Shown here: one piece after another, positions 1 through 59,174 of the stretch
Position numbering within the stretch: the stretch's first letter is position 1
Layout: each line of letters opens with the position of its first letter
IMG/VR virus record: IMGVR_UViG_3300020050_008479
Direction: 5' to 3' (one strand)
DNA length: 64,000 bases
Source of the DNA: a virus
Lineage: Duplodnaviria > Heunggongvirae > Uroviricota > Caudoviricetes > Crassvirales
The notes under the pieces: generated by a model
Database searches by the model: none
What the model saw: only the letters and a program-made list of their open reading frames with translations
What the model was told of the DNA's origin: nothing
Translations under genes and position numbers: made by a program

Positions 1-1
1 A

Positions 2-1015: not shown

Positions 1016-1034
1016 AATTATAAATTGTTTTTAA

Positions 1035-1772
1035 TTAAACTACTCTTTGATTTGTTTGAATTTTACTCTGAAGACTATTTTCTCTATAGTCCCTGATGGC
1101 TAACTCAACAGCCCTGTTTAATATTTCTCTGTGAATACTCTCGTCTAATTCACATTGCTTTATTTGGTTTAATCCATTCACTGTTAATCCTAATCCTGTA
1201 ACAGAAGCATCTAACTCAAAGTTAGCTAAAACTATTGGCGAGGGATATTTTACATACCTCATTGAATAAGAGATTAATGGCACTTCAGAAACCAATTCTA
1301 CATTCTTTAATGTAGCGTCTTTAGATATGTCCAGTCTAAATACCCTTTTTCCATTTGGCTTCCTAAAAGGATTCTTCATGCTTGAATTTAAGTCGTCGTA
1401 ACTTATTGGGTTAACTTCAACTGTAACTCTTTCTCCGCAGTTATTGGATAAGTCCGCGGCCTCATATACAATATACATTACATCTGCCGGAATGTTTACT
1501 AACTTTGATTTAGTTGAAAGTGACTTTGATGAAGTAATAAAAGATGCTGATTTAAAATCTTTAACTAGCTCTGATAATTCTCTTCTTTTTTGTTCGTCTC
1601 CTTCAAAACTCCTTTTTAATGGATTGTATCCGCAGTAAGCCGCTTTTACTAATTCAAATTGAGCTGTAGTTAAATACACACTCTTTTCGTAAACATCCAG
1701 TCCAGGAGCAGAACTGCTTGAAATATTGTCATAAAGAATGTCAAATTCAGTACTAAATTCTGCTACTGTCAT
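1035..1772 (-). CDS. hypothetical structural protein
   Basis: 245-aa ORF tightly packed between structural genes on the same strand. Confidence 0.45.
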   Translation of the reverse strand: MTVAEFSTEFDILYDNISSSSAPGLDVYEKSVYLTTAQFELVKAAYCGYNPLKRSFEGDEQKRRELSELVKDFKSASFITSSKSLSTKSKLVNIPADVMYIVYEAADLSNNCGERVTVEVNPISYDDLNSSMKNPFRKPNGKRVFRLDISKDATLKNVELVSEVPLISYSMRYVKYPSPIVLANFELDASVTGLGLTVNGLNQIKQCELDESIHREILNRAVELAIRDYRENSLQSKIQTNQRVV

Positions 1773-1783
1773 GGTCTATATTT

Positions 1784-2707
1784 TTATTGTTTAGAATTCT
1801 TCAATTTTGCTTGCAATGCAAGTCTCATTTCTTGTCCTAATGGAGAAGCTAAATACTTAGCGGCAGTTTCCAATACTGGAATATCTCCCTCAGAAATTGG
1901 CTGATTGTCCAAAGTATAGAATTTCTTGTCAGTCTTGATGACAACTCCATTTTCAAAAGCTTCTTCTAAAAGAACCTTAGTTTCAATCAATGGATCAGCA
2001 GTAACTGCAACAAACATGTTTGGATCTTTCTCAATCATTTTAGCTGTCTCAACTTGCAAGAAGCTTAACTCTTGAGTCTTAGAAGTATAACGTCCTAAGT
2101 TTCTTAAGATATATCTCAAGACATCTTTCTTGTTTTTGAATTCTACATACTTCTCGAAAGCAAGTACTTTGTTTCCAACAGAATCTTTTTCTTTTCTCAA
2201 TTCTTCTCCTTCAGCAATCATTACAAAACGGTATGTAGCTTTATTTCTAATCTCATCTAAGCTTGACGCAACTAATGGACTAACTAACAATACTTTGTAA
2301 AGTAAATACTGAACTGGATCTGACAAGTCAAATTTAACATCATCTTTACCTAAGAATACAGGAAACATTCCTCCTTTTTTGTACTCTTCTTTCCAGAATG
2401 CACCGTAGATACTTAAATCTTTTTTAAGTAAGTATTCCAAACCAGCTTTCTCTTTGTTGGTTAAGATATTCTTCATTTTGTTATTGTCTAACAATGGCAC
2501 CGGAATTGCAATTGAACTGTTCTCAAACAATCCACCGTATCCAACGTGCTTTGGATCTTTAATTGCAGCAGTCTCTTTACGAATGTACTTTACAGTAACA
2601 ACTTCTGCTCTTAAAAAATCTGTTGAAGGCAATTCATTTCCTTGGTAATCTTTTTCAGCAATAGCTCTACTATCGTCTTGAAACTTGTCTTTATTCTTTT
2701 CACTCAT
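1784..2707 (-). CDS. hypothetical head/neck-associated protein
   Basis: 307-aa ORF immediately downstream of the capsid gene, same strand. Confidence 0.45.
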   Translation of the reverse strand: MSEKNKDKFQDDSRAIAEKDYQGNELPSTDFLRAEVVTVKYIRKETAAIKDPKHVGYGGLFENSSIAIPVPLLDNNKMKNILTNKEKAGLEYLLKKDLSIYGAFWKEEYKKGGMFPVFLGKDDVKFDLSDPVQYLLYKVLLVSPLVASSLDEIRNKATYRFVMIAEGEELRKEKDSVGNKVLAFEKYVEFKNKKDVLRYILRNLGRYTSKTQELSFLQVETAKMIEKDPNMFVAVTADPLIETKVLLEEAFENGVVIKTDKKFYTLDNQPISEGDIPVLETAAKYLASPLGQEMRLALQAKLKNSKQ

Positions 2708-2844
2708 GATTCATTCTTCTTTTTATTGATTCTTCTTCTCTCTCTTATGAAGTTGTAGGATTGATAAGCTCACTTCCTACTAAAGCATTTGTTTGCAAAT
2801 ATAGCGAGATACTTTTAATATCTCGCTATTTCTACTAATTATTA

Positions 2845-4344
2845 TTACGCAAGAACGTAAGGGATAATCTGTGCAGTTCTAGAAGGGTCGTAAACAACAA
2901 CTCCTAATTGACACCATTTAGTAATGGTTCCTGCATCTTCCAATGTTCCCATGTTACCGTTGTTGGCTTCTCCAGTAAATGGATTTCTGAAACCCCATTG
3001 GTAACCTCTGTACTCTTCTTTTCCAGTAACCTTGACTTGTTGGATGTTAGGATCTTCTGGTGTTCCGATGTAGAAGATATCGAATCTGTAAGATTCAGCA
3101 ACTCCATTAGAACCAGGAATACGGATTGTATTTCTTACTTTGTCATCGTAGAAGTCATCAACCTCAACTTTAACAGTTACACCGTTTGGTGCTAAATACT
3201 CTGTAAATTGGAAACCTGCTTTGAATGCATTTGCGTGCAATTCAGATTGAGTTTTCATTACAGTGGCAGGGTTTGTACCTGGAGTTGACATGTTAGCAGC
3301 CCATCCTGAAGTGTGGTTTAATACAGCTTTGTGGAATTCAGCAGCTCCTCTTTCTCCAGTTCTTAAGATAAAGACACGTTTGTCAAATCCTAATTTTCCT
3401 TCTGACAATCCGAACAAGATTTCTTCCAACATCTCCAATGAGAACTCATTGTAGTAGAAAGTATTTGATTGTTCCATTTGTTCACGGATACCTGATCCAA
3501 TTTTGATAGCTCTACCAGAAACATCAAAGTTATGGTATTCACCGTCAGCAGTTCTGTTGGATTTACCATACATTAATGCTTTGTTTTTGTAAGCAGAAAA
3601 TTCTTGCTCAACTAACCAGTCTTCATAAAGGGCCAAAGTAGGGAATACTTTTTTGTTACCTTCTTTATCTAGAACTGGGATACCCATTGCTACTTTTTTA
3701 CCAGTTGCATCTCCAGGTAATTTGTGGTCGATACGGATAGTAGTTAACTCACCTCTCATAGAGATTGGAGTAACACGTCTAACACCACCAACTTCTCTAG
3801 ATAATCCACGACCTACTGGCGCAAACTCTTCTGAGAATCTTTTTCCTGAAACTAATTCTTCACCAGGAATACCATCTCTGTTTGAACCTGCACATTCGCA
3901 AGTATAAACATAAAGGTTACCTTCTGGACTACCATCGTCAATAACACGGATTGGGTAAACTTCATTTTTCTCTCCTGTAATTAATTCTCCTTTGAAGAAC
4001 CATTGCTCTGGGAAAGCTAATTCGAAAGTTGTACGACCTTCTCCAATATTGAAATCTCCGGCAGTTACCGTAGCTCCTTTGTAGCGCGCCTCATATAAAG
4101 GAATGTTACGTCTAGAACTTCCGATAAGTTCCCAATAGAACTCTCTATCGTCCTCTACATATTTTGTTTCAAATTGACTAAGCATATTCTCAAGAGATTT
4201 ACCTCTGTGGATTGCTAGTAATTTGATCATTGTGTCGTTAATCTTTTGTGGGTTCATCTTCCAAATAGCACCTAAAGTGTTTTCTGGATTAATCATTCCT
4301 GCAAAAGCCTTAGCGTCTGTTACCTGAAATTTACCTAATTGCAT
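2845..4344 (-). CDS. major capsid protein (putative)
   Basis: 499-aa ORF directly downstream of an acidic coiled-coil scaffold-like gene; composition and size are capsid-like; conserved late-gene order scaffold then capsid. Confidence 0.6.
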   Translation of the reverse strand: MQLGKFQVTDAKAFAGMINPENTLGAIWKMNPQKINDTMIKLLAIHRGKSLENMLSQFETKYVEDDREFYWELIGSSRRNIPLYEARYKGATVTAGDFNIGEGRTTFELAFPEQWFFKGELITGEKNEVYPIRVIDDGSPEGNLYVYTCECAGSNRDGIPGEELVSGKRFSEEFAPVGRGLSREVGGVRRVTPISMRGELTTIRIDHKLPGDATGKKVAMGIPVLDKEGNKKVFPTLALYEDWLVEQEFSAYKNKALMYGKSNRTADGEYHNFDVSGRAIKIGSGIREQMEQSNTFYYNEFSLEMLEEILFGLSEGKLGFDKRVFILRTGERGAAEFHKAVLNHTSGWAANMSTPGTNPATVMKTQSELHANAFKAGFQFTEYLAPNGVTVKVEVDDFYDDKVRNTIRIPGSNGVAESYRFDIFYIGTPEDPNIQQVKVTGKEEYRGYQWGFRNPFTGEANNGNMGTLEDAGTITKWCQLGVVVYDPSRTAQIIPYVLA

Positions 4345-4370
4345 GTGTATTTAATTTAAAAGTGTTATTG

Positions 4371-5483
4371 TTATTCGAACTTGACTCCTTCAAGATCTTT
4401 TAGAGTAAACGTACTCATGTCGTCCTTGGAATCTGTAATTATTTTTCCATCTCCTGTGAAATTAGCTCCTCTTAATAGAGATTCAATTCCTTTAGAAATA
4501 CTTGTTTCTTTTGCATTGCCAAAAACTGAGAAATCTTTTAAACCTTTCGTTAGGTAGAACAAAGCTTCTAGTTTCATTCGAGATCCAAGTGGATCAGCTT
4601 TCTGAGCTTGAACGAATGCATTTTCTTTGTTTCCTAAATCTGTAGTGATTTGGTCATAAAGTTCTTGTTTTTGAGCAAGAGTTAATTTAACGCCAGGTAT
4701 AATTTCATCTTCCTTATCAACGTATGTTTTGATGTTATTCAAAGCACTAGTTTCTTCTTCTTTTTTAGAAGAGATAAGTGAATTTAATTTTCCTTCCTCT
4801 GACTTTACAATTTCTTTTAAAGCAGTAAGAGCGTCTTCTACATCATCTCCGGAATCAATGCTTCGTTGAGCCATTGCAAGCGCCTTGTCTTTAGCGAAAC
4901 CTTTGTTGATGAAATCTTGAGCAATCACATTCATTCTGAATTCTTCGTTTCCTTCTCCAGAAACATACTCATCAGTAATTGCCTTAAGTTTACCAATTGA
5001 CTCTAATTGTCTCGAAGCTTCTTCAGCAGGGACTCCAGCCTTAACGGCATCTTCAATAGTCTTGTTCCTTGCAGATAATCTTGATTCAACTTCTTTGGTA
5101 ATTGCATTATTGATATCATCCATAGATGCTATCTTGTCTTTATCTAAATCAAGATTTGATAAGATTCCTTTAGCTTTGAATTCGGCAGCTAAAGAAGAAT
5201 ATAACTTTTCAGTATCATTCGGTGTTGGAGAGGAAGAATCAGTACCTTCCTTCTTGGCTTCTGGAGCCTTACCATCTTGATTAGTTTTATCTTCTTCCTG
5301 TTTAGCTACGCTCTCTGGAGTTGTAATAGTTTCTACTACTTTTTTCTCCTCACTATTAGGTGTTGGTATTACAATGTCTTTTGCAGGTTCTCCTGCTTTT
5401 CCTTCTGGCTTCGTTGCAAATACGTCAAACACGTCATCTGAACTTGTATCAAAAGTTAAGTCGTTTAAGTTTAATCCTTCCAT
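4371..5483 (-). CDS. scaffolding protein (putative)
   Basis: 370 aa, strongly acidic, Lys/Glu-rich and predicted coiled-coil, low complexity; sits immediately upstream of the capsid gene. Confidence 0.55.
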   Translation of the reverse strand: MEGLNLNDLTFDTSSDDVFDVFATKPEGKAGEPAKDIVIPTPNSEEKKVVETITTPESVAKQEEDKTNQDGKAPEAKKEGTDSSSPTPNDTEKLYSSLAAEFKAKGILSNLDLDKDKIASMDDINNAITKEVESRLSARNKTIEDAVKAGVPAEEASRQLESIGKLKAITDEYVSGEGNEEFRMNVIAQDFINKGFAKDKALAMAQRSIDSGDDVEDALTALKEIVKSEEGKLNSLISSKKEEETSALNNIKTYVDKEDEIIPGVKLTLAQKQELYDQITTDLGNKENAFVQAQKADPLGSRMKLEALFYLTKGLKDFSVFGNAKETSISKGIESLLRGANFTGDGKIITDSKDDMSTFTLKDLEGVKFE

Positions 5484-5555
5484 AATTCTTTTTGTTTAAT
5501 TCTCCGTTGACAAATTTACATTCTTAAAGCAAATTATCTTCATTGCAATTTATTG

Positions 5556-6155
5556 CTATTTAAACAAAGTGAATGTTTTACTAAAGCCTACGTACACATT
5601 CTTATCTAGGTCAATTGACGCTGTATAGATGTTTCCGGATTTAGTTTGGATCCCAGTTTTTATTAAAGGATTAAATTCAAAGTTTCTATATCCTACCTCC
5701 GCTCCTAGTATAATTGACAGTCTAGGTCTCTGAGTAATAACTCTTTCCTTAATTTCTTGCTGCTTTATTTTAACTTTAGCGCTAGTAGCAATAAGATCTC
5801 CTTGTACTTTAGAATAGACTTCAACACTTACTGTATCGTTGTCAATTACTTTTGTGTTATAATCTCTTATCGTGATTGCCTCAACGAATTGTTCTTTTTT
5901 TTTAACAGTATCCTTTTCTTGAATATAATCATTGTACTTGTCTTTATTAACCACCACAGTCCCGTCTTTGACAACAATGGTCTTTAATTTTATTTTTTCA
6001 ATGAATACTGTATCTGTCACTTTGGTATATTCCGGCTGAACTACCGTGACAATCTTTTCTTTTGGACCTGAACAGGTTCCAAGAATCAAGATTATAGCTA
6101 TAAGGGCTACTATAAAGATATTCTTCATAGTAGCCAATTCTTTTAATTTATCCAT
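5556..6155 (-). CDS. lipoprotein (candidate spanin / lysis accessory)
   Basis: N-terminus MDKLKELATMKNIFIVALIAIILILGTCSG is a signal peptide with a lipobox-like LGTC; lies downstream of the endolysin; start probably at 6155 or 6128, not the 6209 given in the ORF track. Confidence 0.5.
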   Translation of the reverse strand: MDKLKELATMKNIFIVALIAIILILGTCSGPKEKIVTVVQPEYTKVTDTVFIEKIKLKTIVVKDGTVVVNKDKYNDYIQEKDTVKKKEQFVEAITIRDYNTKVIDNDTVSVEVYSKVQGDLIATSAKVKIKQQEIKERVITQRPRLSIILGAEVGYRNFEFNPLIKTGIQTKSGNIYTASIDLDKNVYVGFSKTFTLFK

Positions 6156-6666
6156 AAATCTTTTTGTATAACTCTTTAGTGTAAACAGAGTAAACTGTCT
6201 TTCCAGCAACTTTGTGTGCTATAAGTATTTGCTTTCTATTCGCTTCAGAATAACTTACATGAACCCAAGCTGGACTCTTTCCGTCATCTCCTTCAAACTC
6301 AGCAATCAATTGGTCAAACTTAAGATTGTCTTTAATGAAATTAAATACATCGTTGTTTGTAATGCCATTGTCAATTAGATCTGCATCTATATCCATGGCT
6401 GCTTCATTTTTTCCACTAACAGCTCCGGCACAATGTTGAGAAGTTTTAGAACCTCCAACTGCTTTGTTAAGCGTCAATGACCTAAAGAAAGATATAATAG
6501 CGATAGGCTTACCAATCTTTTCTCTTAAAGGCTCGAATACTTTTTCTGCTAGAATCTTCATTCGTGCAATTTCTTTAGAGTTAGGAATATTTTTTATTCC
6601 AAGTTTAATTCCAGTTGCGGACTTAATGCTTTCTTCGTAACTGATGTGCTTTGAAATTCTTTCCAT
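6148..6666 (-). CDS. endolysin, peptidase M15 family (Zn D-Ala-D-Ala carboxypeptidase / L-Ala-D-Glu peptidase-like)
   Basis: Motifs LNKAVGGSKTSQHCAGAVSGKNEAAMDID and WVHVSY match the H-x6-D ... H zinc triad of Peptidase_M15_3; a holin-like gene is upstream. Confidence 0.7.
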   Translation of the reverse strand: MERISKHISYEESIKSATGIKLGIKNIPNSKEIARMKILAEKVFEPLREKIGKPIAIISFFRSLTLNKAVGGSKTSQHCAGAVSGKNEAAMDIDADLIDNGITNNDVFNFIKDNLKFDQLIAEFEGDDGKSPAWVHVSYSEANRKQILIAHKVAGKTVYSVYTKELYKKIYG

Positions 6667-6667
6667 T

Positions 6668-7162
6668 TTATTTTGTTTTAGCGAATATGTCTTGAATTGC
6701 TTTAGGTAGAAATTGAATCATTCTTTTAAGAATGTTTCTTCCCGAAACAGCTTCCATATTTTCGTAGTTACTGTAAACTTCAACGATACTTGCTACCATG
6801 ATTGCTAGTTCAGTTAATGAGAATTGTTTACTCATTAAGTCAATTGGCTCCATTTTAAAGATCATGCTTTCGAATACTGAGCATACGATAATACCTATTC
6901 CATATTCATAGGTTTTTTTCCAGGTCTCTCTGATCCCGTAACTTTTAACTCCTTTCCAGAATCTTTTTTGCCAAACATAGGCTGTAATTCCTTTTAAGAA
7001 AAAATCTTTTCTTATTCCTGATAATAAATCAAGAAGGATTAATAACGCTAATCCGATGATAGCGCTTTGTGAATTTAACATAACTGTAAGTATTGGAGTT
7101 AATACTAGTAAAATCTTTTTTACAATTGTTAGTTCACCAAAAAATAAAATTAACGATCTCAT
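6668..7162 (-). CDS. holin-like membrane protein
   Basis: 164 aa with about 3 hydrophobic helices (ILLVLTPILTVML, AIIGLALLILLDLL, GIGIIVCSVF); directly upstream of and abutting the endolysin. Confidence 0.45.
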   Translation of the reverse strand: MRSLILFFGELTIVKKILLVLTPILTVMLNSQSAIIGLALLILLDLLSGIRKDFFLKGITAYVWQKRFWKGVKSYGIRETWKKTYEYGIGIIVCSVFESMIFKMEPIDLMSKQFSLTELAIMVASIVEVYSNYENMEAVSGRNILKRMIQFLPKAIQDIFAKTK

Positions 7163-7249
7163 ATTTTTTTTTGTTTTACGACGTGGTGTAAAGGCAAAAT
7201 TAACTACAACTTTGCCTCTTTCACGTCAATCTTTTATAGCTTTAAAAAT

Positions 7250-8413
7250 TTATTTATTCACAAAATAAACGGTTCCTGTTAAATTTGTTGCTGTAGTATT
7301 TGATGCTAACCAAAATGGTAATAAGCAATGACCATTATTAAGTTTTAAATCTAGTTTTCTTTGAAAAGCGGTTGACCCAACATTTGCTACTGTAACTGGT
7401 ACAGTACCTAAAAAATTAAAAGCGATTAAACTAATTGCACCTGCTGTTAATGTAGTACCTAATGTAATAGATTGAATACTTCTTACACCAATATCTCCTT
7501 GTGCTAATTGAAAAGGAACAAATGTACCTATTACTGCTGTTGCTGGAAAAGACATTGTACCTATTCTTCCTGCTACACCATTACTATTAGTGTATGAAAT
7601 TGTAATTCCATTATTAACAGCAGCATTTGTAGTAGCAGTAGTAACTAATATCCCTGCGCCTACACCAAATCCATTAGATGTACCTAAATTATCTCTAAGT
7701 GGTAATGTAGGTTGTGTTATTGCTTGTGCAGTTGTAGTTGTAACTACTAAACCTGTATTAACCCATAAAACATCACCTAAAATAAAAGTTCCTGCTTGAG
7801 ATGCTGTTGTAACAATATCTCTAATGTAGTTTACACCACTTGCAGGAGTTCCTGCTGAAATACAACCTCCATCTGCTACTGTTGTGCCATCTGTATTTCT
7901 ACCATTAATTCCTGGCGTACCTGGTAACCAAGCTCCTGGTGCGCCATTATCTTTAGCAAAACAATAATATTGTCCTGCTGCTTCTGGAGCAGTTCCTACT
8001 TTAAACACTACTCTACTGTCTCCAGATATCTCACTATCTCCCATGTTTTGAAGTTTTACTCTACCTGCTATGTCAAAAACTTCTACCTTATCGTTAACTA
8101 TTCTAAAACTCTCTCCATTTTGCAATCCTATTTTTTGATAAATATATTCTGTTCCTGCTACATCTTTTTTAATTGTTATTGTATTTGAAACTCCGTTGTT
8201 ATAAACGTTTAAATATTGTATTTTACTTGTGGTATTTAAAGATCCAGTAACTAATACTGTCGTTGTCGCAGTTGTTATTATTCCTTCATTACTAATAGGA
8301 GCCGTTGCTGTTGTATTAGTAACATTTGTGTATCCTACTTGGTAATGAATTGAACCAGCAATAGAAGTTTGAAGTTCTAATAAATGTGTTAAAGCTGTTA
8401 AATTTAGTTGCAT
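7250..8413 (-). CDS. Gly/Thr/Asn-rich fibre-like structural protein
   Basis: 387 aa, low-complexity T/G/N/V-rich beta-type sequence typical of fibres or decoration proteins. Confidence 0.4.
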   Translation of the reverse strand: MQLNLTALTHLLELQTSIAGSIHYQVGYTNVTNTTATAPISNEGIITTATTTVLVTGSLNTTSKIQYLNVYNNGVSNTITIKKDVAGTEYIYQKIGLQNGESFRIVNDKVEVFDIAGRVKLQNMGDSEISGDSRVVFKVGTAPEAAGQYYCFAKDNGAPGAWLPGTPGINGRNTDGTTVADGGCISAGTPASGVNYIRDIVTTASQAGTFILGDVLWVNTGLVVTTTTAQAITQPTLPLRDNLGTSNGFGVGAGILVTTATTNAAVNNGITISYTNSNGVAGRIGTMSFPATAVIGTFVPFQLAQGDIGVRSIQSITLGTTLTAGAISLIAFNFLGTVPVTVANVGSTAFQRKLDLKLNNGHCLLPFWLASNTTATNLTGTVYFVNK

Positions 8414-8414
8414 A

Positions 8415-10046
8415 TTATAAATTATTAAATATTGTTTTTATCCTCATTACTTCTTCAAAAGTTATTTCTCCGCCACCTCCTCCTGTTGCGTAGTTAGGAA
8501 TATTTAAGGTGCTTCCAACAAATGTTGAAGCTCCGCTTGTTCCTAAAGTAGTCAATGTTATATTATTTTGTTTACTTGTTAAATCATTGATAAGATTTGT
8601 CACTCCTGATTGAGGTATTCCTGTAAAATTAGATTCATTTACATTAATATCTATTCTGTCTGTTCCTGATAAAACAATAGACATCTTGTTATTTACCGGG
8701 TTTAGTTTATAAAATTCTAGATCAGACAATGTTTTTTGTTTAAAAACACCCACACCCACAGTTCCTGTGTTTGAAGCAGTGTTTACTTCTCCTGAACCAG
8801 CGCCTATGATTATATTACCAGAGCCTTCCAGGCTGCTTCCATTTACTGTTTTTAAAGGTCGTTTTGTTTGAATACTTGCTGTAGTTTCATCTCCTGTATT
8901 TACTCCGCTTGAGTCCCCAGAAAAGGTACCAGACTGAGTTGCTAAAGTTCCCAATCCTGTTATTGTGCTTACTGATTGTGTACCTGTATGATTTTCTCTA
9001 TTTCTATCTGAGTCATGAAAATGAAGATTAGAATTAGAATTATCGTCAAGTGTATTTAAATTAGCCGCAGTTATCGTAACATCAGTAGCTCCATCAGCAA
9101 GTAAATGATTATGAGCTGTAGGTGCATCACCTACAAACTGTATATCGCCATCTGTTATTGCTGTATCAAATTGAGCTTTAGTTCCAGTTATTCCTACTAT
9201 AGAAGTTTGATCACCTGTGTTTACTCCAGACTGATTATTTAACGTAGCTATAGTGGTTATTAGACCTACTAAAGTGTTTGCTGAGTTTACATTTCCTGAA
9301 GGAATTACATAATCAGTTCCAGGTACTGCTGCCGCAATAGTTGTACCATTGCTTTTTACTATTCCATTAATCGCTCTAACTATTGGATCAGTTTCTGAGT
9401 AAGAAGTTAAAAATCCAGAAGGATTTCCACTTAAAGGATAAGCATCTGTTATTCCGTATCCTGAAAGAGTAAAAGGCTTGTTAGTTATTGAGTCAAAAGT
9501 TTGTGCTGGAACTGAACTTATATAACCATTTGGATTTGAAGCGTCGTATTTAGAACTCCACTTGGAATAATTATTTAAAGTGTATGGAGTCACAAATTTA
9601 TCATCATTGACTCCTAAGTTGACTTCTGTAGAATTAGCTTGATATGGTTGCTCTACATAGGACCATACAACTCCTGTAGAATGATAAAGTCCTTTTGGAT
9701 AATAAGTTCCGCCTAAAGAACCTGGAAGCCATTTTGTTCCTTGTTCTGAATCAACAAAATAGAATTTTCCTGCTGCTAACTCAGCTGAAGGCAATTGATT
9801 GTAACCGGAAACTACGTTTATAACTGTTCCTAGTATTAAAGCATTAGTAGCTTCAAGTACAGTTCTGTCTATGTCTTCTTGAGTAACTCCTATTGTTTCG
9901 TTTGATATTTTCAATTCAGAAGGCGTTCCTGATTCTCCATATATAAAAAACTCTCTCGTATCTTCACATAAGTAAACACTACCTGGATTCAATGAGTGTG
10001 GAAGTTCAGATCTTAATCCATAATATTGATTTTGAGTTAATTTCAT
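8415..10046 (-). CDS. tail fibre / receptor-binding-like protein
   Basis: 543 aa; internal repeats (SGVNTGDQTS / SSGVNTGDETT); Gly/Thr/Asn-rich; between the portal-like gene and the lysis cassette. Confidence 0.45.
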   Translation of the reverse strand: MKLTQNQYYGLRSELPHSLNPGSVYLCEDTREFFIYGESGTPSELKISNETIGVTQEDIDRTVLEATNALILGTVINVVSGYNQLPSAELAAGKFYFVDSEQGTKWLPGSLGGTYYPKGLYHSTGVVWSYVEQPYQANSTEVNLGVNDDKFVTPYTLNNYSKWSSKYDASNPNGYISSVPAQTFDSITNKPFTLSGYGITDAYPLSGNPSGFLTSYSETDPIVRAINGIVKSNGTTIAAAVPGTDYVIPSGNVNSANTLVGLITTIATLNNQSGVNTGDQTSIVGITGTKAQFDTAITDGDIQFVGDAPTAHNHLLADGATDVTITAANLNTLDDNSNSNLHFHDSDRNRENHTGTQSVSTITGLGTLATQSGTFSGDSSGVNTGDETTASIQTKRPLKTVNGSSLEGSGNIIIGAGSGEVNTASNTGTVGVGVFKQKTLSDLEFYKLNPVNNKMSIVLSGTDRIDINVNESNFTGIPQSGVTNLINDLTSKQNNITLTTLGTSGASTFVGSTLNIPNYATGGGGGEITFEEVMRIKTIFNNL

Positions 10047-19939: not shown

Positions 19940-20021
19940 ATAGCTGATTGTGAGAATTACGATATCCCGACCTGATGATTAACAACCAACTGCTCTTCCT
20001 CTGAGCTAACAATCAATATTG

Positions 20022-20803: not shown

Positions 20804-20891
20804 TTGGGTAGGTAGGAATTGAACCTACATAGTCTTATTTGTTTGCGACAGAGTTACAGTCTGCGGACGTAGCCAATTTGTCATCTACCCA
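20804..20891 (-). tRNA. tRNA-Tyr (anticodon GTA), type II
   Basis: Acceptor TGGGTAG/CTACCCA; anticodon stem GCAGA/TCTGT with loop CTGTAAC; long variable arm; T-arm GTAGG-TTCAATT-CCTAC. Confidence 0.6.
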
Positions 20892-20904: not shown

Positions 20905-20978
20905 AGGGTACAATAGGATTCGAACCTATGTTCTTCAGGTTTGCAGCCATCTACTTTATACCACTCAGTCATGTACCC
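20905..20978 (-). tRNA. tRNA-like gene, possibly Cys (GCA); weak anticodon stem
   Basis: Perfect acceptor GGGTACA/TGTACCC; T-arm ATAGG-TTCGAAT-CCTAT; loop CTGCAAA present but its stem has only 2 Watson-Crick pairs. Confidence 0.45.
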
Positions 20979-26702: not shown

Positions 26703-27515
26703 ATGAAAATTATAGGACAAATAGAATTAGTAAAAGAAACAAGTAAAATATTTGAGATATTTAGAGCGTCTGATGCTGAAATAAGACCTCACTTTTTACT
26801 TACAGGGCCATCAGGATCAGGAAAATCATTTACAATTGCTCAATTAGCAAAGAAGTTTAACTTAGGATTCATAGAAGTTAATGCAGCTCAATTGACTAAA
26901 GAGGGAACGTCTGGTAATTCTTTATCAAAAGCATTGGCTCCAATTGGACAATCAGGAGGAAAGCCAACTGTAGTATTTGTTGATGAATTTGACAAACTAT
27001 TCATATCTGGAAACAGTAATGATAGTTGCGCTCATGAATCTACAACCGGAGTGCAAAACGAATTTCTTAAAATACTAGAATCTGACACTGCTTCAGTCTT
27101 TGGTGATTATGGAAAATACGTCAATGTTCCAATTAACAATACATTATTTGTATTTGCAGGAGCTTTTAACGGAGAAGAAAACATTTCAATCGACAGGCTA
27201 AGAGAAATTGGAATAAAAACAGAATTCTTAGGAAGAGTTGGACTCGTATTCAATACATGCCCTTTAACTATAGAAGACATGAATAATATAATAGATTCAT
27301 CTAGCTTAATAGATAAATACTTAGCATTATTCGACGCTGTTAATAGAGAAGATGTAGTATCTAGAATAAAAGAAGTAGTAAAGAATAACTTTGAAATGAA
27401 TACAATTGGTGCTAGATTAATAAATACTCTAGTTCATCAATACTTTATAAAAGGAGGATTACTTGAAGAATCAGTAGTGAAAGAAATATCATTTCAATCT
27501 AAGCTTACTCTTTAA
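26703..27515 (+). CDS. AAA+ ATPase, ClpX-like unfoldase core domain
   Basis: Walker A LLTGPSGSGKSF and following segment align with ClpX ([21 protein letters not shown] ... TTLTEAGYVG); Walker B VVFVDEFDKL; only 270 aa, with no N-terminal zinc-binding domain. Confidence 0.6.
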   Translation: MKIIGQIELVKETSKIFEIFRASDAEIRPHFLLTGPSGSGKSFTIAQLAKKFNLGFIEVNAAQLTKEGTSGNSLSKALAPIGQSGGKPTVVFVDEFDKLFISGNSNDSCAHESTTGVQNEFLKILESDTASVFGDYGKYVNVPINNTLFVFAGAFNGEENISIDRLREIGIKTEFLGRVGLVFNTCPLTIEDMNNIIDSSSLIDKYLALFDAVNREDVVSRIKEVVKNNFEMNTIGARLINTLVHQYFIKGGLLEESVVKEISFQSKLTL

Positions 27516-27521
27516 TTAAAA

Positions 27522-27586
27522 GGCAATGTAGCTTAATGGTAAAAGCACTGGAATACGGATGGAGCCTCGATAAGCTTCCATTGCCA
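27522..27586 (+). tRNA. tRNA-like element (truncated / pseudo-tRNA?)
   Basis: Perfect 7-bp acceptor GGCAATG/CATTGCC; D-arm GCTT-AATGGTAAA-AAGC; T-like arm GGAGC-CTCGATAA-GCTTC; anticodon arm too short (65 nt total). Confidence 0.3.
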
Positions 27587-32438: not shown

Positions 32439-32860
32439 GATGACTTGGAAAGAACTCATCTTAGACGCATATTCAAAGGGTAAGACAATACAGTCTAATC
32501 ATTCTGGAAAATGGAGTGACTTTAGTCCTCAAAACCAAGTCGACAGGCCTAATTTAAATTATGGAACTGAAGATAATTGGAGAATAAAAGAATAGTGTAA
32601 AAATAGACATCTTGTTGAAGCCAGCATGTAATAAGACCGGATGCGTGGGATACCGAAGCATTTAATGTGGATAACAGAAAGCCGGGTACAAGATTCTATG
32701 ATGCAATAAGCGTTATAACAGGGGCGAGGATGATTGTTTACATTTACACCTATCCTCGCACAGAGAGATTGAGCGTTCTTGTTACATGTTTACGGGAACG
32801 AAGTTAATACAATAAAATTGCGTATCATTATTTTGATTAGTGCCCTCACACGAGGGCTAC

Positions 32861-33294
32861 GGGGCCGCTTGGTTTTGACAGGTTAAATACGCAGTAAGAT
32901 CAGCTCCGAGAGATAACGGATAATAACTAAGGTGAATCATTTTAAATGACAACAATCAAGTTTCAGCCAATATGGCTACAGTAGGTTCATTACTTAACGT
33001 TAACGCTCCGGCAAGAACAATGAGAATGGCAGCATAATACTCTTAGAAGTAATGCGACTCAACATTGGCAAGAGTATAAATTTGCCATAAATTTTAACGT
33101 ACATAGTGCGTTACAACTCATGAGAGAGATTGCATTTATGCACTCATGAGTGTTGAGCTATAAATGCTATCATCTCAAAACTTCTAGATTTAGTATTGTT
33201 TGAGAGAAGGAAAAGGCTAAACTTTACAAAAGCTGTATAAATCTTATTGTTACACTTTAATTTTGGACGGGGGTTCGACTCCCCCCGGCTCCAC
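32861..33294 (+). ncRNA. ssrA: tmRNA (ssrA-like transfer-messenger RNA)
   Basis: 5' end GGGGCCG-CTT-GGTTTTGACAGG resembles the E. coli tmRNA 5' end GGGGCUG-AUUCU-GGAUUCGACGGG; 3' end GGACGGGGGTTCGACTCCCCCCGGCTCCA resembles E. coli GGACGCGGGUUCAACUCCCGCCAGCUCCA; the 7-bp acceptor pairs GGGGCCG with CGGCTCC 434 nt away; an internal short frame ends ...APARTMRMAA-TAA (Ala-Ala-stop, as in tag peptides). Confidence 0.65.
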
Positions 33295-33556
33295 AATTTA
33301 TAAAATCACTTGCTTGAAGATAAACAATAATATAAATACGAATTAACGTATGGTGTTAGCTCTAAGAAGAGTACTTAAAATGTCAAAAAGTATATTATAA
33401 GCTGTACTAGCAGTTGTGTTTGTTGTAAAGATGTTAAATTATAAGCAATTAAGGAGATCATCCTTGTATGTGAAAGATTTCATACTATTATTCCGACTAG
33501 AAAGGACAAGTGATTTTTTAAATAATAAATAGAAGGAAAACTATAGAAACCTGAAT

Positions 33557-33631
33557 ATAGGTGTAGTTCAGTATTTGGTAGAACAGACCCTTCAAATGGT
33601 TATGTCGTTGGTTCGAGCCCAGCCACCTATA
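33557..33631 (+). tRNA. tRNA, anticodon ambiguous (CAA, or TCA suppressor-like); anticodon stem weak
   Basis: Acceptor ATAGGTG/CACCTAT; D-arm GTTC-11nt-GAAC; T-arm GTTGG-TTCGAGC-CCAGC; loop region CCTTCAAATGG; short variable arm, which is inconsistent with a bacterial Leu tRNA. Confidence 0.5.
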
Positions 33632-48952: not shown

Positions 48953-49996
48953 ATGACTACAAGAGTAATTGACACAAATTTAATTAAGAAAGAGGAAGTA
49001 TTTAGAATTTTAGCATTAGCTGAAGCAACGGGCTTAGCTATGTTACTGATCGGACCTCCAGGAGTTGCGAAAACTGCGTCAGTTATTGACTACGCTAAAG
49101 CTGCCGGGAATGGAACTCTAGCGAATGATGAGTTGTTTATCTTGGAAACAGATGAAGGAACAAAATCAACCGCTGTTAAAGGAAATATCGATTTAGAGGA
49201 GCTTACTCTTAATCAGAAATACAAAGTAATTTCTCCAATTACTAAAGCAAAATTTGTTGTTATTAATGAGGTTGATAAAGCTTCTGCGTCATTAAGAAAT
49301 TCATTGTTAGGAGTAATGAATGAAAAAGTATTGTTTAATGGTAAAGATGCAGTTCCTTGTGATTGGAATGTATTTGTTGCAACTTGTAATAAAATCCCTG
49401 AAGACGAGATAGGTTCTCCATTCTGGGATAGATTTATGATTACTTTTGAAGTAGAAAGAGTACGTCAAAGTGACATCATGGATTACTATGCAAAAGGAGC
49501 AAAGGCATTTAAAAAGAAAAACACAATCAATCTTCCAACTCCTGCTGATATTGCAGCAATCGCTCTTAGTCCTGTTAAGTTAGGAAAAGTAGTTGATTTA
49601 GCTTATGCTAAATTATCTGATAGAACTTTATCTTACCTTCCTACATTGGTAAAAAACATTATGATTGTTTACAATTGTGCTGAGAATGGAGCTTTGATTA
49701 AGGCTGTAGAATTGTTGATTGGAAAGGCAGAAGCTAATGTATTAGCTAAAGCTTTAGTTCCACAAGAATTAAGATTAATCTATGACAAAATAGATATGCT
49801 TGCTGCATCTTCAGACTATAACGAGTATTCTCGTATTACTGACGAAATCAACTTAATGACAGTTGATTTGATGAATAAAGGTAAATTATCTGACGTAGAT
49901 AAAGATGACATTCAAAACAAATACGAACAAGCTCAAGATAAACTTGAATTCTTAGTTGAAGACGAGAACATGGGCGACACAGAAGACGAATTTTAA
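48953..49996 (+). CDS. MoxR/AAA_5-like ATPase
   Basis: Walker A LLIGPPGVAKTA, Walker B VVINEVDKA, sensor N; 347 aa. Confidence 0.65.
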   Translation: MTTRVIDTNLIKKEEVFRILALAEATGLAMLLIGPPGVAKTASVIDYAKAAGNGTLANDELFILETDEGTKSTAVKGNIDLEELTLNQKYKVISPITKAKFVVINEVDKASASLRNSLLGVMNEKVLFNGKDAVPCDWNVFVATCNKIPEDEIGSPFWDRFMITFEVERVRQSDIMDYYAKGAKAFKKKNTINLPTPADIAAIALSPVKLGKVVDLAYAKLSDRTLSYLPTLVKNIMIVYNCAENGALIKAVELLIGKAEANVLAKALVPQELRLIYDKIDMLAASSDYNEYSRITDEINLMTVDLMNKGKLSDVDKDDIQNKYEQAQDKLEFLVEDENMGDTEDEF

Positions 49997-50013: not shown

Positions 50014-51495
50014 ATGAGTTTCTTAAAAAAAGGAAATAAAAAAAAAGCGGGGTCATTGGCTCCGCTTAAAAAATTCTATGATCCTTATGAGGAATCAGAT
50101 GGATTCTTAAAGAAGGTTCGAAAAGAGGTTATCCTTCCTGGAGTAACTAAGTACGAAGAAATGAAGCTTGCTAGAATTCATGACTACATTAAAGAGAAGA
50201 CTGGAAAAGAATCTACGCTTCCTCAACACATGTTGAATGATGTTTACAGCATGTATGTTAATAGAGATATTAAGAAAAAACCAGTTAATAAATACAATGC
50301 TATTAAGCAGAAAGTTATTGACTCAACTTACAACTCTTTAACTAAAATGGTTGCTAAAGATTCTGTATTGTTTTCTCAGATTGTAACTAGAGAGATTTCT
50401 CTTTATATGCAACAAGTTCAAGATTTAATTGAAGAAGAGACTAAAGATGAAGATGGAAACAAAAGCGGGATCCCTGGATTTGATCAAGAAGGTGAAGATG
50501 ATGGCGATGACTCAGGAAGTGGCCAAGGTCAAGGCCAAGGTAACGGGGAAGGCGATGGAGACGACGGTGACGACGGTGACGGAGATTCTAGCGGAACTGG
50601 CAATCCTGCAGGAGGCACTGGCGCAGGCAAAGGCCCTTCATCCGGAGGACCAGCACCAAAAGGGTTTGAGAAAAAAGTTGACGATATCATTAAACAGAGT
50701 CAAAACAAGTTAGATCAAGCAATGAAGAATGCTGAAAAAGAAATCAAGGAGATTGAAGACTTATTAGGTAAAGACGCAGCTAAAGAATTAAGCGATACTG
50801 ACGCTAACTTTCTTGAAGATTTTAATAGACTTAAGGCATTACTGAAGAAAGTTACTTTTAATAAAGATAACATCAAAACAGTATTGATGAAGATCCTTAA
50901 TAAATCTCAAAACTACTTTTCTAAAAATGCAATAACAGTTGAGGAAAGTATCTTTGATGCTGATGAACTTGACGAATTATTTGGACTTGAATATCTTCAT
51001 CCTATCTTTAGGAATGCAGGAATAATGGACATTGGTAATGAAGGTAAACTTTATACCGGTAAAATTGACTTGTATTTAGATTGTTCTGGATCTATGAGTT
51101 CTACTGCAAATTTTGGAGGAGTTAATATTAAAATGTCTGAATTGGTTAAAGGAATCGCGATCATTCTTTATAGAATGAACATGATTGATAGACTGTACTT
51201 TTTTGATACAGGAATCTATGAAATCAAGAACATAAATGAATTCACAATACTTTCTTTCGATAGGAGTGGAGGTACTGATTTTAATCGTGTTGTTGACCAA
51301 GCTTTATCCAATAAGAGAAATTCAGTCGTAATTACTGATGGAGAAGATGGAGTTAGCAAGTACGCTAAGAATGTGTTTTGGATAGGAATTGGAGGAACTA
51401 AGTTTTCTCGTAATGACGAATTTAAAACATATAGAGCTATAAGACAATGCGTTACTTACAATCCGTCAACTACAAATTTCGACTATTGTAAATAA
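50014..51495 (+). CDS. von Willebrand factor A (VWA) domain protein with acidic Gly/Asp-rich linker
   Basis: MIDAS motif DLYLDCSGSMS ... T ... FDRSGGTDF ... TDGED in the C-terminal half; central 60-aa low-complexity GEDDGDDSGSGQGQGQGNGEGDGDDGDDGDGDS ... Confidence 0.65.
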   Translation: MSFLKKGNKKKAGSLAPLKKFYDPYEESDGFLKKVRKEVILPGVTKYEEMKLARIHDYIKEKTGKESTLPQHMLNDVYSMYVNRDIKKKPVNKYNAIKQKVIDSTYNSLTKMVAKDSVLFSQIVTREISLYMQQVQDLIEEETKDEDGNKSGIPGFDQEGEDDGDDSGSGQGQGQGNGEGDGDDGDDGDGDSSGTGNPAGGTGAGKGPSSGGPAPKGFEKKVDDIIKQSQNKLDQAMKNAEKEIKEIEDLLGKDAAKELSDTDANFLEDFNRLKALLKKVTFNKDNIKTVLMKILNKSQNYFSKNAITVEESIFDADELDELFGLEYLHPIFRNAGIMDIGNEGKLYTGKIDLYLDCSGSMSSTANFGGVNIKMSELVKGIAIILYRMNMIDRLYFFDTGIYEIKNINEFTILSFDRSGGTDFNRVVDQALSNKRNSVVITDGEDGVSKYAKNVFWIGIGGTKFSRNDEFKTYRAIRQCVTYNPSTTNFDYCK

Positions 51496-59078: not shown

Positions 59079-59174
59079 TGTTGCGTGGCGGAGTGGTTAA
59101 ACGCTGATGAATCTTAATGGTAATACCTAAATGGTGACAAAGTACCTACGCAGGTTCGAATCCTGTCGCAACAT
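59079..59174 (+). tRNA. tRNA-like gene with long variable region (96 nt); isotype undetermined
   Basis: Perfect acceptor TGTTGCG/CGCAACA; D-loop AGTGGTTAAA; T-arm GCAGG-TTCGAAT-CCTGT; anticodon arm not resolved (contains a CTTAATGG motif). Confidence 0.45.

What the first reader, a model, noticed from the sequence alone, without database searches (positions are those of the whole stretch)
32861..33294. Phage-encoded tmRNA (ssrA) with an atypical tag reading frame
A 434-nt plus-strand segment has both ends of a tmRNA. The 5' end GGGGCCG-CTT-GGTTTTGACAGG resembles the E. coli tmRNA 5' end. The 3' end GGACGGGGGTTCGACTCCCCCCGGCTCCA resembles the E. coli 3' end, including a G5/C5 T-stem. The two ends form a 7-bp acceptor stem. 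It sits in an ORF-free, relatively GC-rich island flanked by tRNAs. An internal frame ends ...NAPARTMRMAA-TAA. The Ala-Ala-stop ending resembles the ...ALAA-stop ending of tmRNA tag peptides, but -MAA is unusual and the resume codon is not obvious. tmRNA genes are rare in phages. A phage copy could hijack or modify trans-translation and the degradation tag, or could be the 3' partner of an attP-type site (tmRNA 3' ends are common integration targets). The presence of the 5' half as well argues for a full gene.
Basis: partly seen in the sequence, partly recalled or inferred. Interest (0 to 1): 0.78.

Follow-up and report, generated by a model that had tools for sequence, protein, structure and literature searches.

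The report
Phage tmRNA with a long tag
A crAss-like phage carries its own complete ribosome-rescue RNA (tmRNA), one of a phage-only lineage common in viruses of flavobacteria, and its degradation tag is about three times the usual length with a conserved middle motif of unknown role.

Summary
Window 32861-33293(+) is a full-length, one-piece tmRNA: Rfam RF00023 gives 80.6 bits against a threshold of 47, E 1e-29, covering the whole model. ARAGORN misses it. The window is a crAss-like phage (capsid Pfam E 3e-163).

The resume codon is GAC at 32948. The tag is DNNQVSANMATVGSLLNVNAPARTMRMAA (29 aa) followed by TAA.

This RNA is not a one-off or a captured host gene. Its PK1 signature occurs in 104 IMG/VR viral contigs but in only 1 of 185,579 species genomes, and that contig is a mis-binned phage.

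- In 57 distinct family members the acceptor stem, T arm and helix 2 covary strongly, and G3:U70 is invariant.
- All tags are 24-49 aa. All but one end in Ala-Ala.
- 55 of 57 carry Q-[VI]-x-A-N-M-x-x-V, with synonymous codon variation (pN/pS 0.38).

Cultured members exist. Flavobacterium phage FpV4 has an unannotated copy. Cellulophaga phage phi14:2 has one (Rfam 46.0 bits, 1 bit under threshold) in an intergenic interval published as an abundant early RNA of unknown function.

Most likely the RNA performs trans-translation using host AlaRS and SmpB. No SmpB, integrase or protease was found in the window.

Verdict: a new variant of a known kind, of moderate interest.

The parts
32861..33293 (+). 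tmRNA gene (433 nt up to the discriminator A; CCA not encoded)
   Evidence: Rfam RF00023 at 32861-33296: 80.6 bits, E 1e-29, full model. MFE z-score -3.7 against shuffles. Member of a 57-sequence family alignment, A2.
32861..32867 (+). Acceptor stem, 5' strand GGGGCCG. G3 (32863) pairs with U (33290), the alanine identity pair.
   Evidence: Direct reading. In A2 the G:U pair is invariant in 57/57 sequences, and 3 of 7 acceptor pairs show compensatory changes.
33286..33292 (+). Acceptor stem, 3' strand CGGCUCC, followed by discriminator A at 33293
33269..33285 (+). T arm: GGGGG / UUCGACU / CCCCC
   Evidence: Rfam alignment. 4 of 5 T-stem pairs covary across the family and 100% of cells are paired.
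32880..32905 (+). Helix 2, 5' strand (including CAGCU at its top)
   Evidence: RNAalifold and pair counts on A2: 18 of 22 helix-2 pairs show compensatory changes.
33231..33263 (+). Helix 2, 3' strand (AGCUG...AUCUUAUUG...UUUAAUUUU)
32905..32947 (+). PK1 region with the lineage signature GAGAGAUAAC...AGGUGAAU...UAAAU. The first hairpin (CCG/CGG) is supported; the second stem is not resolved.
   Evidence: Hairpin columns 53-55/64-66 are 98.8% paired. The signature pattern hits 104 viral contigs and 1 genome contig.
32948..33037 (+). Tag reading frame: resume codon GAC, 29 codons (DNNQVSANMATVGSLLNVNAPARTMRMAA), stop TAA at 33035-33037
   Evidence: Rfam alignment places the consensus resume codon here. 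ARAGORN gives the same start and frame in L011. The same junction yields an ORF ending in xAA (a few in LVA) before a stop in all complete family loci. Codon analysis gives pN/pS 0.375.
33039..33086 (+). PK2, an H-type pseudoknot: S1 ACUCUU/AAGAGU, S2 UGGC/GCCA
   Evidence: Direct reading of A2. S1 covaries among long-form members (CUCUU/AAGAG, CCUC/GAGG, AGUCA/UGACU, UGUC/GACA), while S2 is invariant.
33095..33178 (+). Central hairpins: UAACGUA/UGCGUUA, ACUCAUGAG/CUCAUGAGU, UUGAG/CUCAA. This segment is variable and is replaced or deleted in L001 and L011.
   Evidence: MFE fold. One compensatory C:G to U:A change between window and L153. L011 lacks about 100 nt here.
33181..33221 (+). Putative PK4: CUUCU/AGAAG with UUUAG/CUAAA
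   Evidence: Direct reading only. The sequence is conserved in window, L153, L001 and L011. No covariation is available.
32842..32857 (+). Hairpin GCCCUC-ACAC-GAGGGC, 3 nt upstream of the mature 5' end. Possibly a precursor leader or processing element (inferred).
   Evidence: GTGCCCTCACAYGAGGG recurs directly 5' of the tmRNA in many family loci. In L001 it precedes a tRNA-Met instead.

Best explanation
This is a functional, phage-encoded, one-piece tmRNA belonging to a phage-specific lineage carried by crAss-like and other phages of Flavobacteriia.

Proposed mechanism. The evidence covers the gene's anatomy and conservation; every biochemical step below is inferred.
1. The gene is transcribed with the rightward early/replication block.
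2. RNase P removes a short hairpin-containing leader. Because CCA is not encoded, host enzymes add it.
3. Host AlaRS charges the RNA through the invariant G3:U70 pair.
4. Host SmpB and EF-Tu deliver it to ribosomes stalled on broken or stop-less mRNAs. Such mRNAs should be plentiful when the phage or host defences degrade RNA.
5. Translation resumes at GAC (32948). It adds Ala plus 29 residues ending in Met-Ala-Ala and terminates at UAA.
6. The ribosome is released for phage protein synthesis. The truncated protein carries a C-terminal Ala-Ala degron of the ClpXP/ClpAP type.

The conserved internal motif Q-[VI]-x-A-N-M-x-x-V-x-x-[LI]-[LI] is under selection at the peptide level. It most likely serves as an additional recognition element for an adaptor or protease. 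Its partner is unknown.
For: - Identity as a tmRNA: full-length RF00023 match, 80.6 bits.
- Phage context: crAss capsid PF23898 (E 2.7e-163), crAss auxiliary capsid and ring proteins, portal and TerL.
- Functional constraint on the tRNA-like domain and helix 2: in 57 distinct relatives 95.3% of cells are paired, against 77% in shuffles and 39-47% in slid controls. 27 of 37 pairs have compensatory changes and G3:U70 is present in 57/57.
- Evidence that the tag is translated: one shared junction (UAAAU|G) gives an ORF of 24-49 aa in all complete loci, and 56 of the 57 distinct tags end in Ala-Ala, the other in LVA. Q, A, N, M and V are invariant in 55/57 despite synonymous variation (GCT/GCC, AAC/AAT, GTA/GTT/GTG). 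Third-position entropy is highest, and pN/pS is 0.375.
- L001 has the identical peptide with one synonymous change. L011 has only V>I and R>K.
- L153 keeps the same tag and central domain (95% identity) on a different tRNA-like domain (57-69% identity).
- Phage-specific lineage: the signature is found in 104 IMG/VR contigs and 1 of 185,579 species genomes. That one contig is 100% identical to a viral contig and encodes endolysin and holin.
- crAss-type TerL lies within the locus in 20 family loci.
- Cultured members: FpV4 (Rfam 58.2 bits, unannotated) and phi14:2 (ARAGORN tmRNA at 4031-4500; Rfam 46.0 bits, E 1e-16).
- Expression in a relative: the phi14:2 gene lies between g004 (ends 2904) and g006 (starts 4602). 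The g004-g005 and g005-g006 junctions there are reported as rightward transcripts more abundant than most genes, present from the earliest time point and stable later, with function undetermined (bioRxiv 10.1101/2020.03.07.982082).
- Dependence on host factors: no SmpB by tblastn, and none in Pfam scans of 50 ORFs.
Against: - There is no expression, aminoacylation or tagging data for this phage or any family member. The phi14:2 link rests on gene coordinates, not on read-level data.
- The second stem of PK1 could not be identified. The search pattern fixes those bases, so covariation there cannot be tested.
- ARAGORN rejects this copy.
- The window is 64 kb of a probably ~97 kb genome, so an SmpB or a dedicated protease could lie outside it.
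- The host, and therefore the host's own tag, is unknown. The contrast with short Bacteroidota tags rests on my memory of tmRNA databases, not on a tool result.
- Conservation of the internal motif could partly reflect RNA-level constraints.
Confidence: 0.78

Rival explanations
1. The RNA is a decoy or inhibitor. It would soak up host SmpB, EF-Tu or AlaRS, or occupy stalled ribosomes, to block host trans-translation (for example to stop phage proteins being tagged). Tagging itself would not be its purpose.
For: The phage encodes no SmpB of its own within the window, so the RNA must compete for the host's. The homologous region in phi14:2 is very abundant from early infection.
Against: A decoy does not need a translated message. 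Yet the tag frame is open in every member, ends in Ala-Ala before a stop, and shows purifying selection at the amino-acid level with synonymous variation. The resume-codon context is invariant.
Confidence: 0.08
2. The gene is a recently captured host ssrA, or the phage half of an integration site (attP). Many temperate elements insert into the 3' end of tmRNA genes.
For: tmRNA 3' ends are common integration targets (established knowledge). Many IMG/VR hits to the generic 3' pattern sit at contig ends.
Against: Both halves and the whole middle are present and co-linear. No integrase was found among the scanned ORFs. Cultured members (FpV4, phi14:2) carry the gene inside a virion-packaged genome. 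The lineage signature is absent from 185,579 species genomes except for one mis-binned phage contig. Finally, the gene lies mid-genome among early genes.
Confidence: 0.03
3. The tmRNA works by trans-translation, but the long tag is more than a degron. Its conserved Q-x-x-ANM-x-x-V core would give tagged proteins a phage-specific fate, such as delivery to a particular protease or adaptor, sequestration, or a signalling role that reports ribosome stalling.
For: The motif is invariant in 55/57 distinct tags, across tags of 24-49 aa and across divergent tRNA-like domains. Tags are about three times longer than needed for a C-terminal degron. L153 and the window share the message module on different tRNA-like domains, so the module appears to be kept as a unit.
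Against: No partner was identified. The only Clp-like gene in the window (26703-27515) lacks the pore-loop tyrosine and the IGF/RKH loops by eye, and it is widespread in phages that have no link to this tmRNA. A test for an amphipathic helix was not significant.
Confidence: 0.2

Closest known systems
Bacterial one-piece tmRNA (SsrA; Rfam RF00023)
   Same: Acceptor stem with G3:U70, T arm, reduced D-loop analogue (GGUUUUGAC), long helix 2, a pseudoknot region before the message, a short ORF without a start codon ending in Ala-Ala and a stop, and further pseudoknots after it.
   Different: - It is encoded by a lytic-type crAss-like phage, and its PK1 signature is not found in bacterial chromosomes.
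- The tag is 29 aa here and 24-49 aa in the lineage, against roughly 8-13 aa in most bacteria (from my knowledge of tmRNA databases).
- The tag has a conserved internal motif.
- Resume codons are GAC/GGC/GGA rather than the common GCN.
- The RNA is 433 nt long and ARAGORN misses it.
Previously reported phage-encoded tmRNAs: huge phages (PMC7162821), Bacillus phage G (PMC12484599), Cellulophaga phage Calle (PMC8776804), Chryseobacterium phage MA9V-3 (PMC13120357)
   Same: A virus-borne tmRNA sitting with tRNAs in a translation-support region. It is presumed to rescue ribosomes during infection.
   Different: Those reports list the gene as a count or give a short tag (phage G: AKLNITNNELQVA). 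None of the papers found describes a phage-specific lineage, a long tag with a conserved core, or a tmRNA in crAss-like phages.
Long tmRNA tags of Mycoplasma/Ureaplasma, about 27 aa and targeted to Lon (from established literature, recalled, not tested here)
   Same: An unusually long tag in which internal residues, not only the C-terminus, are thought to matter for recognition.
   Different: The sequences are unrelated, and the mycoplasma tags end in AFA/FA rather than xAA. They are a cellular lineage that lacks ClpXP, whereas here the bearer is a phage of Bacteroidota.
Abundant early long non-coding RNAs of crAss-like phage phi14:2 (g004-g005 and g005-g006 junctions; bioRxiv 10.1101/2020.03.07.982082)
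   Same: A family tmRNA lies at phi14:2 4031-4500(+), inside that 2905-4601 interval and in the reported direction of transcription. The stability reported late in infection fits a structured RNA.
   Different: The paper leaves the function open and does not call the RNA a tmRNA. The RefSeq record annotates nothing there. I could not check read-level coordinates because no supplement is held.

Membership tests
tmRNA (RF00023, one-piece) | Covariance-model score at or above Rfam's gathering score, over the full model | tested here: met
   80.6 bits against 47, model positions 1-374/374, not truncated.
tmRNA (RF00023, one-piece) | 7-bp acceptor stem formed by the 5' and 3' ends, with the G3:U70 alanine identity pair | tested here: met
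   32861-32867 pairs with 33286-33292, and G32863 pairs with U33290. G:U is present in 57/57 relatives, and 3 acceptor pairs are compensatory.
tmRNA (RF00023, one-piece) | T arm with a GTTCGAnTC-type loop and a 5-bp stem | tested here: met
   33269-33285. 4 of 5 pairs covary and 100% of cells are paired.
tmRNA (RF00023, one-piece) | Long helix 2 joining the tRNA-like domain to the message/pseudoknot domain | tested here: met
   Alignment columns 21-50 pair with 588-621. 18 of 22 pairs have compensatory changes.
tmRNA (RF00023, one-piece) | Pseudoknot PK1 immediately upstream of the resume codon | tested here: inconclusive
   The first hairpin is supported (98.8% paired). The second stem was not identified, and its bases are fixed by the search pattern, so no covariation test is possible.
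tmRNA (RF00023, one-piece) | Internal ORF without an initiation codon, ending in a hydrophobic-Ala-Ala C-terminus and a stop codon | tested here: met
   32948-33037, ending ...RMAA-TAA. The same frame is called by ARAGORN in L011. 56 of the 57 distinct family tags end in xAA, and pN/pS is 0.375.
tmRNA (RF00023, one-piece) | Pseudoknots downstream of the message (PK2-PK4) | tested here: inconclusive
   PK2 (33039-33086) is supported by S1 covariation read directly from A2. The other elements are predicted only, and the region is replaced or deleted in close relatives.
tmRNA (RF00023, one-piece) | Charged by AlaRS, binds SmpB, and acts in trans-translation | not testable with these tools
   This needs biochemistry or in vivo tagging assays.
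Integration-site tmRNA fragment (attP/attL remnant) | Only the 3' part of the gene is present, next to an integrase, and is identical to the host gene | tested here: not met
   The gene is full length. No integrase was found among the 50 scanned ORFs. The signature is absent from bacterial chromosomes.
Two-piece / permuted tmRNA (RF04321, RF01849, RF01850) | Circularly permuted gene order, with the acceptor 3' part placed before the 5' part | tested here: not met
   The best and only clan match is the standard RF00023 in normal order. Permuted models do hit other, unrelated viral loci.

The most novel reading that the evidence does not exclude
A phage-specific tmRNA lineage spread through crAss-like and other flavobacterial phages has a message module that has evolved into more than a degron. 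The conserved Q-x-x-ANM-x-x-V core of its 24-49 aa tag would direct stalled-ribosome products to a phage-chosen fate, through a dedicated adaptor or protease, sequestration, or a stall-sensing signal. The RNA would also be one of the abundant early 'long non-coding RNAs' of unknown function reported for the model crAss-like phage phi14:2.
Probability: 0.2. Interest if true: 0.8.

Novelty: new variant of a known kind. Interest (0 to 1): 0.6.

Why it matters
crAss-like phages are among the most abundant viruses known, yet how they take over host translation is poorly understood. This work shows four things:
- A whole lineage of them, plus relatives infecting Flavobacterium and Cellulophaga, carries its own ribosome-rescue RNA.
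- Standard pipelines often miss or leave it unannotated. ARAGORN of 81 copies, and the GenBank record of FpV4 and the RefSeq record of phi14:2 annotate nothing at the site.
- Its tag is unusually long and has a conserved core.
- It offers a concrete identity for a published, unexplained, highly abundant early RNA of the model phage phi14:2.

Two cultured phage-host pairs carry the gene, so the role of trans-translation in phage infection and the function of the conserved tag core can be tested directly.

Tried and rejected
1. GenBank phage searches with the window tmRNA (blastn) and the surrounding 10 kb (megablast) found nothing. Relatives appeared only through IMG/VR pattern scans and a search with a more typical family member.

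2. A phage-encoded SmpB, CCA-adding enzyme, integrase or Clp/Lon protease: none was found.

3. A functional link between the tmRNA and the window's ClpX/HslU-like AAA+ protein (26703-27515): rejected. By eye it lacks the GYVG pore loop (it has GTSG) and the RKH and IGF loops. Homologues at 60-66% identity are spread through N4-like and many other phages, and it does not recur in the family loci.

4. The conserved tag core as an amphipathic helix: the hydrophobic moment was not significantly above shuffles for any tag.

5. The 265-nt conserved element upstream (32596-32858) as a known RNA family: no Rfam match at E<=1. It recurs only in L153 and L001, and three sequences are too few for covariation. 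It has no similarity to the FpV4 locus or to phi14:2 1-9000.

6. An automated check of PK2 pairing was mis-registered and uninformative. The PK2 covariation is therefore read directly from the alignment.

7. Literature searches for a prior description of crAss-like or flavobacterial phage tmRNAs returned only software methods and gene counts.

8. The supplementary tables of the phi14:2 transcriptome paper were not available.

Full report

Yes. Infernal with Rfam 15 reports a single tmRNA (RF00023) at 32861-33296(+). The score is 80.6 bits against a gathering score of 47, E 1.1e-29, covering model positions 1-374 of 374 without truncation (repeated).

This holds both on the window and in tmRNA-only mode on the excised gene.

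The features read directly from the sequence are:
- Acceptor stem: 32861-32867 paired with 33286-33292, containing G3:U70.
- Discriminator A at 33293. CCA is not encoded.
- T arm: 33269-33285.

The segment lies in a 1.4-kb stretch with no ORF above 53 aa. That stretch falls in the GC-richest 2-kb bin of the window. tRNA genes lie only downstream: Leu-CAA at 33557 and Cys-GCA at 33669.

**2. What carries it?**

The window is a crAss-like phage. The evidence is:
- Major capsid protein PF23898, E 2.7e-163.
- crAss001 auxiliary capsid and tail-ring proteins.
- Portal and large terminase.
- A rightward block with helicases, DnaB-like helicase, ThyX and DNA ligase.

The capsid protein is 52% identical to those of uncultured phage cr108_1 and the PhiCrAssBcn phages of Bacteroides. 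It also matches 29 Flavobacterium phage records. No GenBank phage matches the tmRNA or its surrounding 10 kb at the DNA level.

**3. The tag**

The Rfam alignment places the consensus resume codon on GAC at 32948. From there the frame reads DNNQVSANMATVGSLLNVNAPARTMRMAA followed by TAA at 33035-33037 (29 codons). An in-frame TGA lies four codons upstream.

Close relatives were found by scanning IMG/VR for the 3' and 5' ends.
- L001 (97-kb contig) encodes the identical peptide with one synonymous change.
- L011 (72-kb contig, syntenic with the window) has only V>I and R>K. ARAGORN calls L011 with exactly this start and frame.
- L153 has the identical tag.

**4. A phage-specific lineage**

Aligning more distant viral tmRNAs showed a shared region before the message: GAGAGATAAC...AGGTGAAT...TAAAT|G. 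That pattern hits 104 IMG/VR viral contigs, many of them 88-124 kb. It hits only one contig among one genome for each of 185,579 bacterial and archaeal species.

That single contig is a 4.9-kb piece of a Flavobacteriales MAG. It is 100% identical over its whole length to a viral contig, and it encodes an endolysin and a holin. It is therefore a mis-binned phage fragment.

Twenty family loci have a crAss-type large terminase within the fetched flank, and 16 have the portal.

From these loci I extracted 81 complete tmRNAs (57 distinct), 314-455 nt long. All have a 7-bp acceptor stem, G3:U70 and a 5-bp T stem. ARAGORN of the 81.

**5. Structure is under selection**

RNAalifold on the 57 distinct sequences predicts the acceptor stem, T arm, a long helix 2 and a small hairpin in the PK1 region. 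Of its 39 pairs, 27 have compensatory double changes.

I then counted 37 of those pairs with controls:

| Measure | Observed | Column shuffles | Partner slid by 1-3 columns |
|---|---|---|---|
| Cells forming a standard pair | 95.3% | 77.1% (0 of 500 shuffles as high) | 39-47% |
| Covariation score | 0.498 | 0.161 | 0.06-0.12 |

After the message, an H-type pseudoknot (window 33039-33086) has an invariant stem UGGC/GCCA. Its second stem covaries among long-form members: CUCUU/AAGAG, CCUC/GAGG, AGUCA/UGACU and UGUC/GACA (read).

The rest of the middle is variable. L011 lacks about 100 nt of it, and L001 has unrelated hairpins there. The second stem of PK1 was not identified.

**6. The message is under peptide-level selection**

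Translating from the shared junction gives an ORF of 24-49 aa in every complete family locus. Across the 57 distinct tags:
- C-termini: VAA 31, MAA 8, LAA 6, IAA 6, AAA 3, EAA 1, FAA 1, LVA 1.
- Resume codons: GGC 31, GAC 13, GGA 13.
- Stop codons: TAA 47, TAG 10.

So -MAA and a GAC resume codon are normal for this lineage.

55 of the 57 tags contain Q-[VI]-x-A-N-M-x-x-V-x-[SN]-[LI]-[LI]. The invariant residues are encoded by varying synonymous codons (GCT/GCC, AAC/AAT, GTA/GTT/GTG, four Leu codons). Entropy is highest at third codon positions. Pooled pN/pS is 0.375 in this block.

L153 shares the window's message and central domain at 95% identity. Its tRNA-like domain and helix 2 are of a different type, at 57% and 69% identity. 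The gene is therefore modular, and the message module is kept as a unit.

**7. Cultured members and expression**

A typical family member matches 29 Flavobacterium psychrophilum phage records and 9 Cellulophaga phage records in GenBank.

*FpV4.* The gene lies at KT876724.1 81947-82361.
- Rfam scores it 58.2 bits.
- ARAGORN finds nothing.
- The record annotates nothing in that 2.3-kb gap.
- The tag is GNTNNSVVSLEDNAQVEANMNMAFSLIREDVAVAA.

*phi14:2.* This is the model crAss-like phage (Steigviridae).
- nhmmer with the window tmRNA finds 4031-4498(+) at E 4e-8.
- ARAGORN calls a tmRNA at 4031-4500.
- Rfam scores it 46.0 bits, one bit below threshold, with E 1.3e-16 in the local search. This explains why it was absent from the gathering-threshold scan.
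- The frame from the family junction reads GNDTDNTQLKANMTVVHNILNGSDALIGSSVQKLAMVA.

The phi14:2 gene lies between g004 (ends 2904) and g006 (starts 4602), where RefSeq has only removed ORFs. The phi14:2 transcriptome study reports that the g004-g005 and g005-g006 junctions are transcribed rightward at higher levels than most genes. They are present from the earliest time point and do not decline later, and their function 'remains to be determined'. I infer that one of those RNAs is this tmRNA. I could not check read-level coordinates.

**8. How it most likely works**

The evidence establishes a complete tmRNA anatomy with the alanine identity pair. Structure and message are both under purifying selection. 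The gene sits in a lytic-type phage genome, co-oriented with early/replication genes and next to tRNA genes.

The following steps are inferred:
1. Host RNase P and CCA-adding enzyme mature the RNA.
2. Host AlaRS charges it.
3. Host SmpB and EF-Tu deliver it to stalled ribosomes. No SmpB was found by tblastn or in Pfam scans of 50 ORFs.
4. Translation resumes at GAC and ends at UAA.
5. Ribosomes are recycled for phage use, and truncated products receive a C-terminal Ala-Ala degron.

The conserved internal core points to an extra recognition step whose partner is unknown.

A hairpin (32842-32857) lies 3 nt before the mature 5' end. It recurs in many family loci and precedes a tRNA-Met in L001. 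It may be a shared leader or processing element.

**9. Rivals**

- *Decoy or inhibitor RNA.* This does not explain a translated, constrained message.
- *attP remnant or recent host capture.* This is contradicted by four things: the whole gene is present, no integrase was found, the signature is absent from bacterial chromosomes, and the lineage is broad.
- *A specialised role for the tag.* This is compatible with the main explanation and remains open.

**10. Comparison with what is known, and novelty**

Phage tmRNAs are documented in several places:
- Huge phages (PMC7162821).
- Phage G, with a 13-aa tag (PMC12484599).
- Cellulophaga phage Calle, listed as one tmRNA (PMC8776804).
- Chryseobacterium phage MA9V-3 (PMC13120357).

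The kind is therefore known. None of the papers the searches returned describes the following:
- A phage-only lineage centred on crAss-like and flavobacterial phages.
- The three-fold extended tag with an invariant core.
- The modular exchange between tRNA-like and message domains.
- The link to the unexplained abundant early RNA of phi14:2.

I rate this a new variant of a known kind. The gene identity is close to certain, the trans-translation mechanism is probable, and the role of the tag core is unknown.

Noticed in passing
window 32596-32858 (+): A ~265-nt non-coding element lies directly upstream of the tmRNA and ends in the hairpin GCCCUC-ACAC-GAGGGC. It is 85% conserved in L153 (again next to the tmRNA) and in L001, where a tRNA-Met and an AAA+ gene follow it before the tmRNA. 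It has no Rfam match at E<=1. RNAalifold predicts long-range helices, but three sequences are too few for covariation. Its position resembles the second abundant early non-coding region of phi14:2, though there is no sequence similarity.
   Followed up: partly
L167 (Cellulophaga phage phi14:2, NC_021806.1) 4031-4500 (+): An unannotated tmRNA of this family. ARAGORN calls it and Rfam scores it 46.0 bits against a threshold of 47. It lies inside the g004-g006 intergenic interval that a published transcriptome describes as very abundant early RNA of undetermined function.
   Followed up: partly
L166 (Flavobacterium phage FpV4, KT876724.1) 3001-3415 = record 81947-82361: An unannotated family tmRNA in a cultured phage (Rfam 58.2 bits, ARAGORN negative). 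It has a 35-aa tag ending VAVAA. The same match occurs in 29 F. psychrophilum phage records.
   Followed up: yes
window 26703-27515 (+): A 270-aa AAA+ protein whose best matches are ClpX and HslU (PDB E 6e-16; NCBIfam ClpX E 2e-18, far below the family cut-off). By eye it lacks the pore-1 tyrosine (GTSG in place of GYVG) and the RKH and IGF loops. Homologues at 60-66% identity occur in Chryseobacterium, Tenacibaculum, Vibrio and N4-like Salmonella/Shigella phages, which is striking conservation across distant hosts. It is not specifically linked to the tmRNA.
   Followed up: partly
L153 13114-13548 (-) versus window 32861-33293: A mosaic tmRNA. The message and central pseudoknot domain are 95% identical to the window's, but the tRNA-like domain and helix 2 are of a different family type (57% and 69% identity). 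This suggests recombination between tmRNA modules of co-circulating phages.
   Followed up: partly
L002 7790-7870 (-) (IMGVR_UViG_3300006169_000036, GC-rich contig): An 81-nt sequence matches RF00023 at 55.3 bits across model positions 1-374 with the whole middle missing. It is a tRNA-like domain only (acceptor stem with G3:U70 plus T arm), with no message or pseudoknots.
   Followed up: no
window 19944-20015(-), 20805-20890(-), 20905-20978(-), 27522-27586(+), 59079-59174(+); L001 2142-2258(+): Rfam tRNA matches that ARAGORN does not call. They include a 96-nt one at 59079 and a 117-nt one in L001, which may contain introns. Their anticodons were not determined.
   Followed up: no
L165 (JBIPLT010000239.1, Flavobacteriales MAG, Lake Mendota sample 3300034064): A 4.9-kb MAG contig that is 100% identical to IMG/VR viral contig L142 and encodes endolysin and holin. 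It is a phage fragment binned into a bacterial genome. It may hint at a Flavobacteriales host for that branch of the family.
   Followed up: yes
window 48953-49996 (+) and 50014-51495 (+): A MoxR-type AAA+ ATPase (PF20030 bpMoxR, E 2e-24) is followed by a 493-aa protein with only weak matches. The pairing is reminiscent of MoxR-vWA systems. It sits inside the replication block.
   Followed up: no
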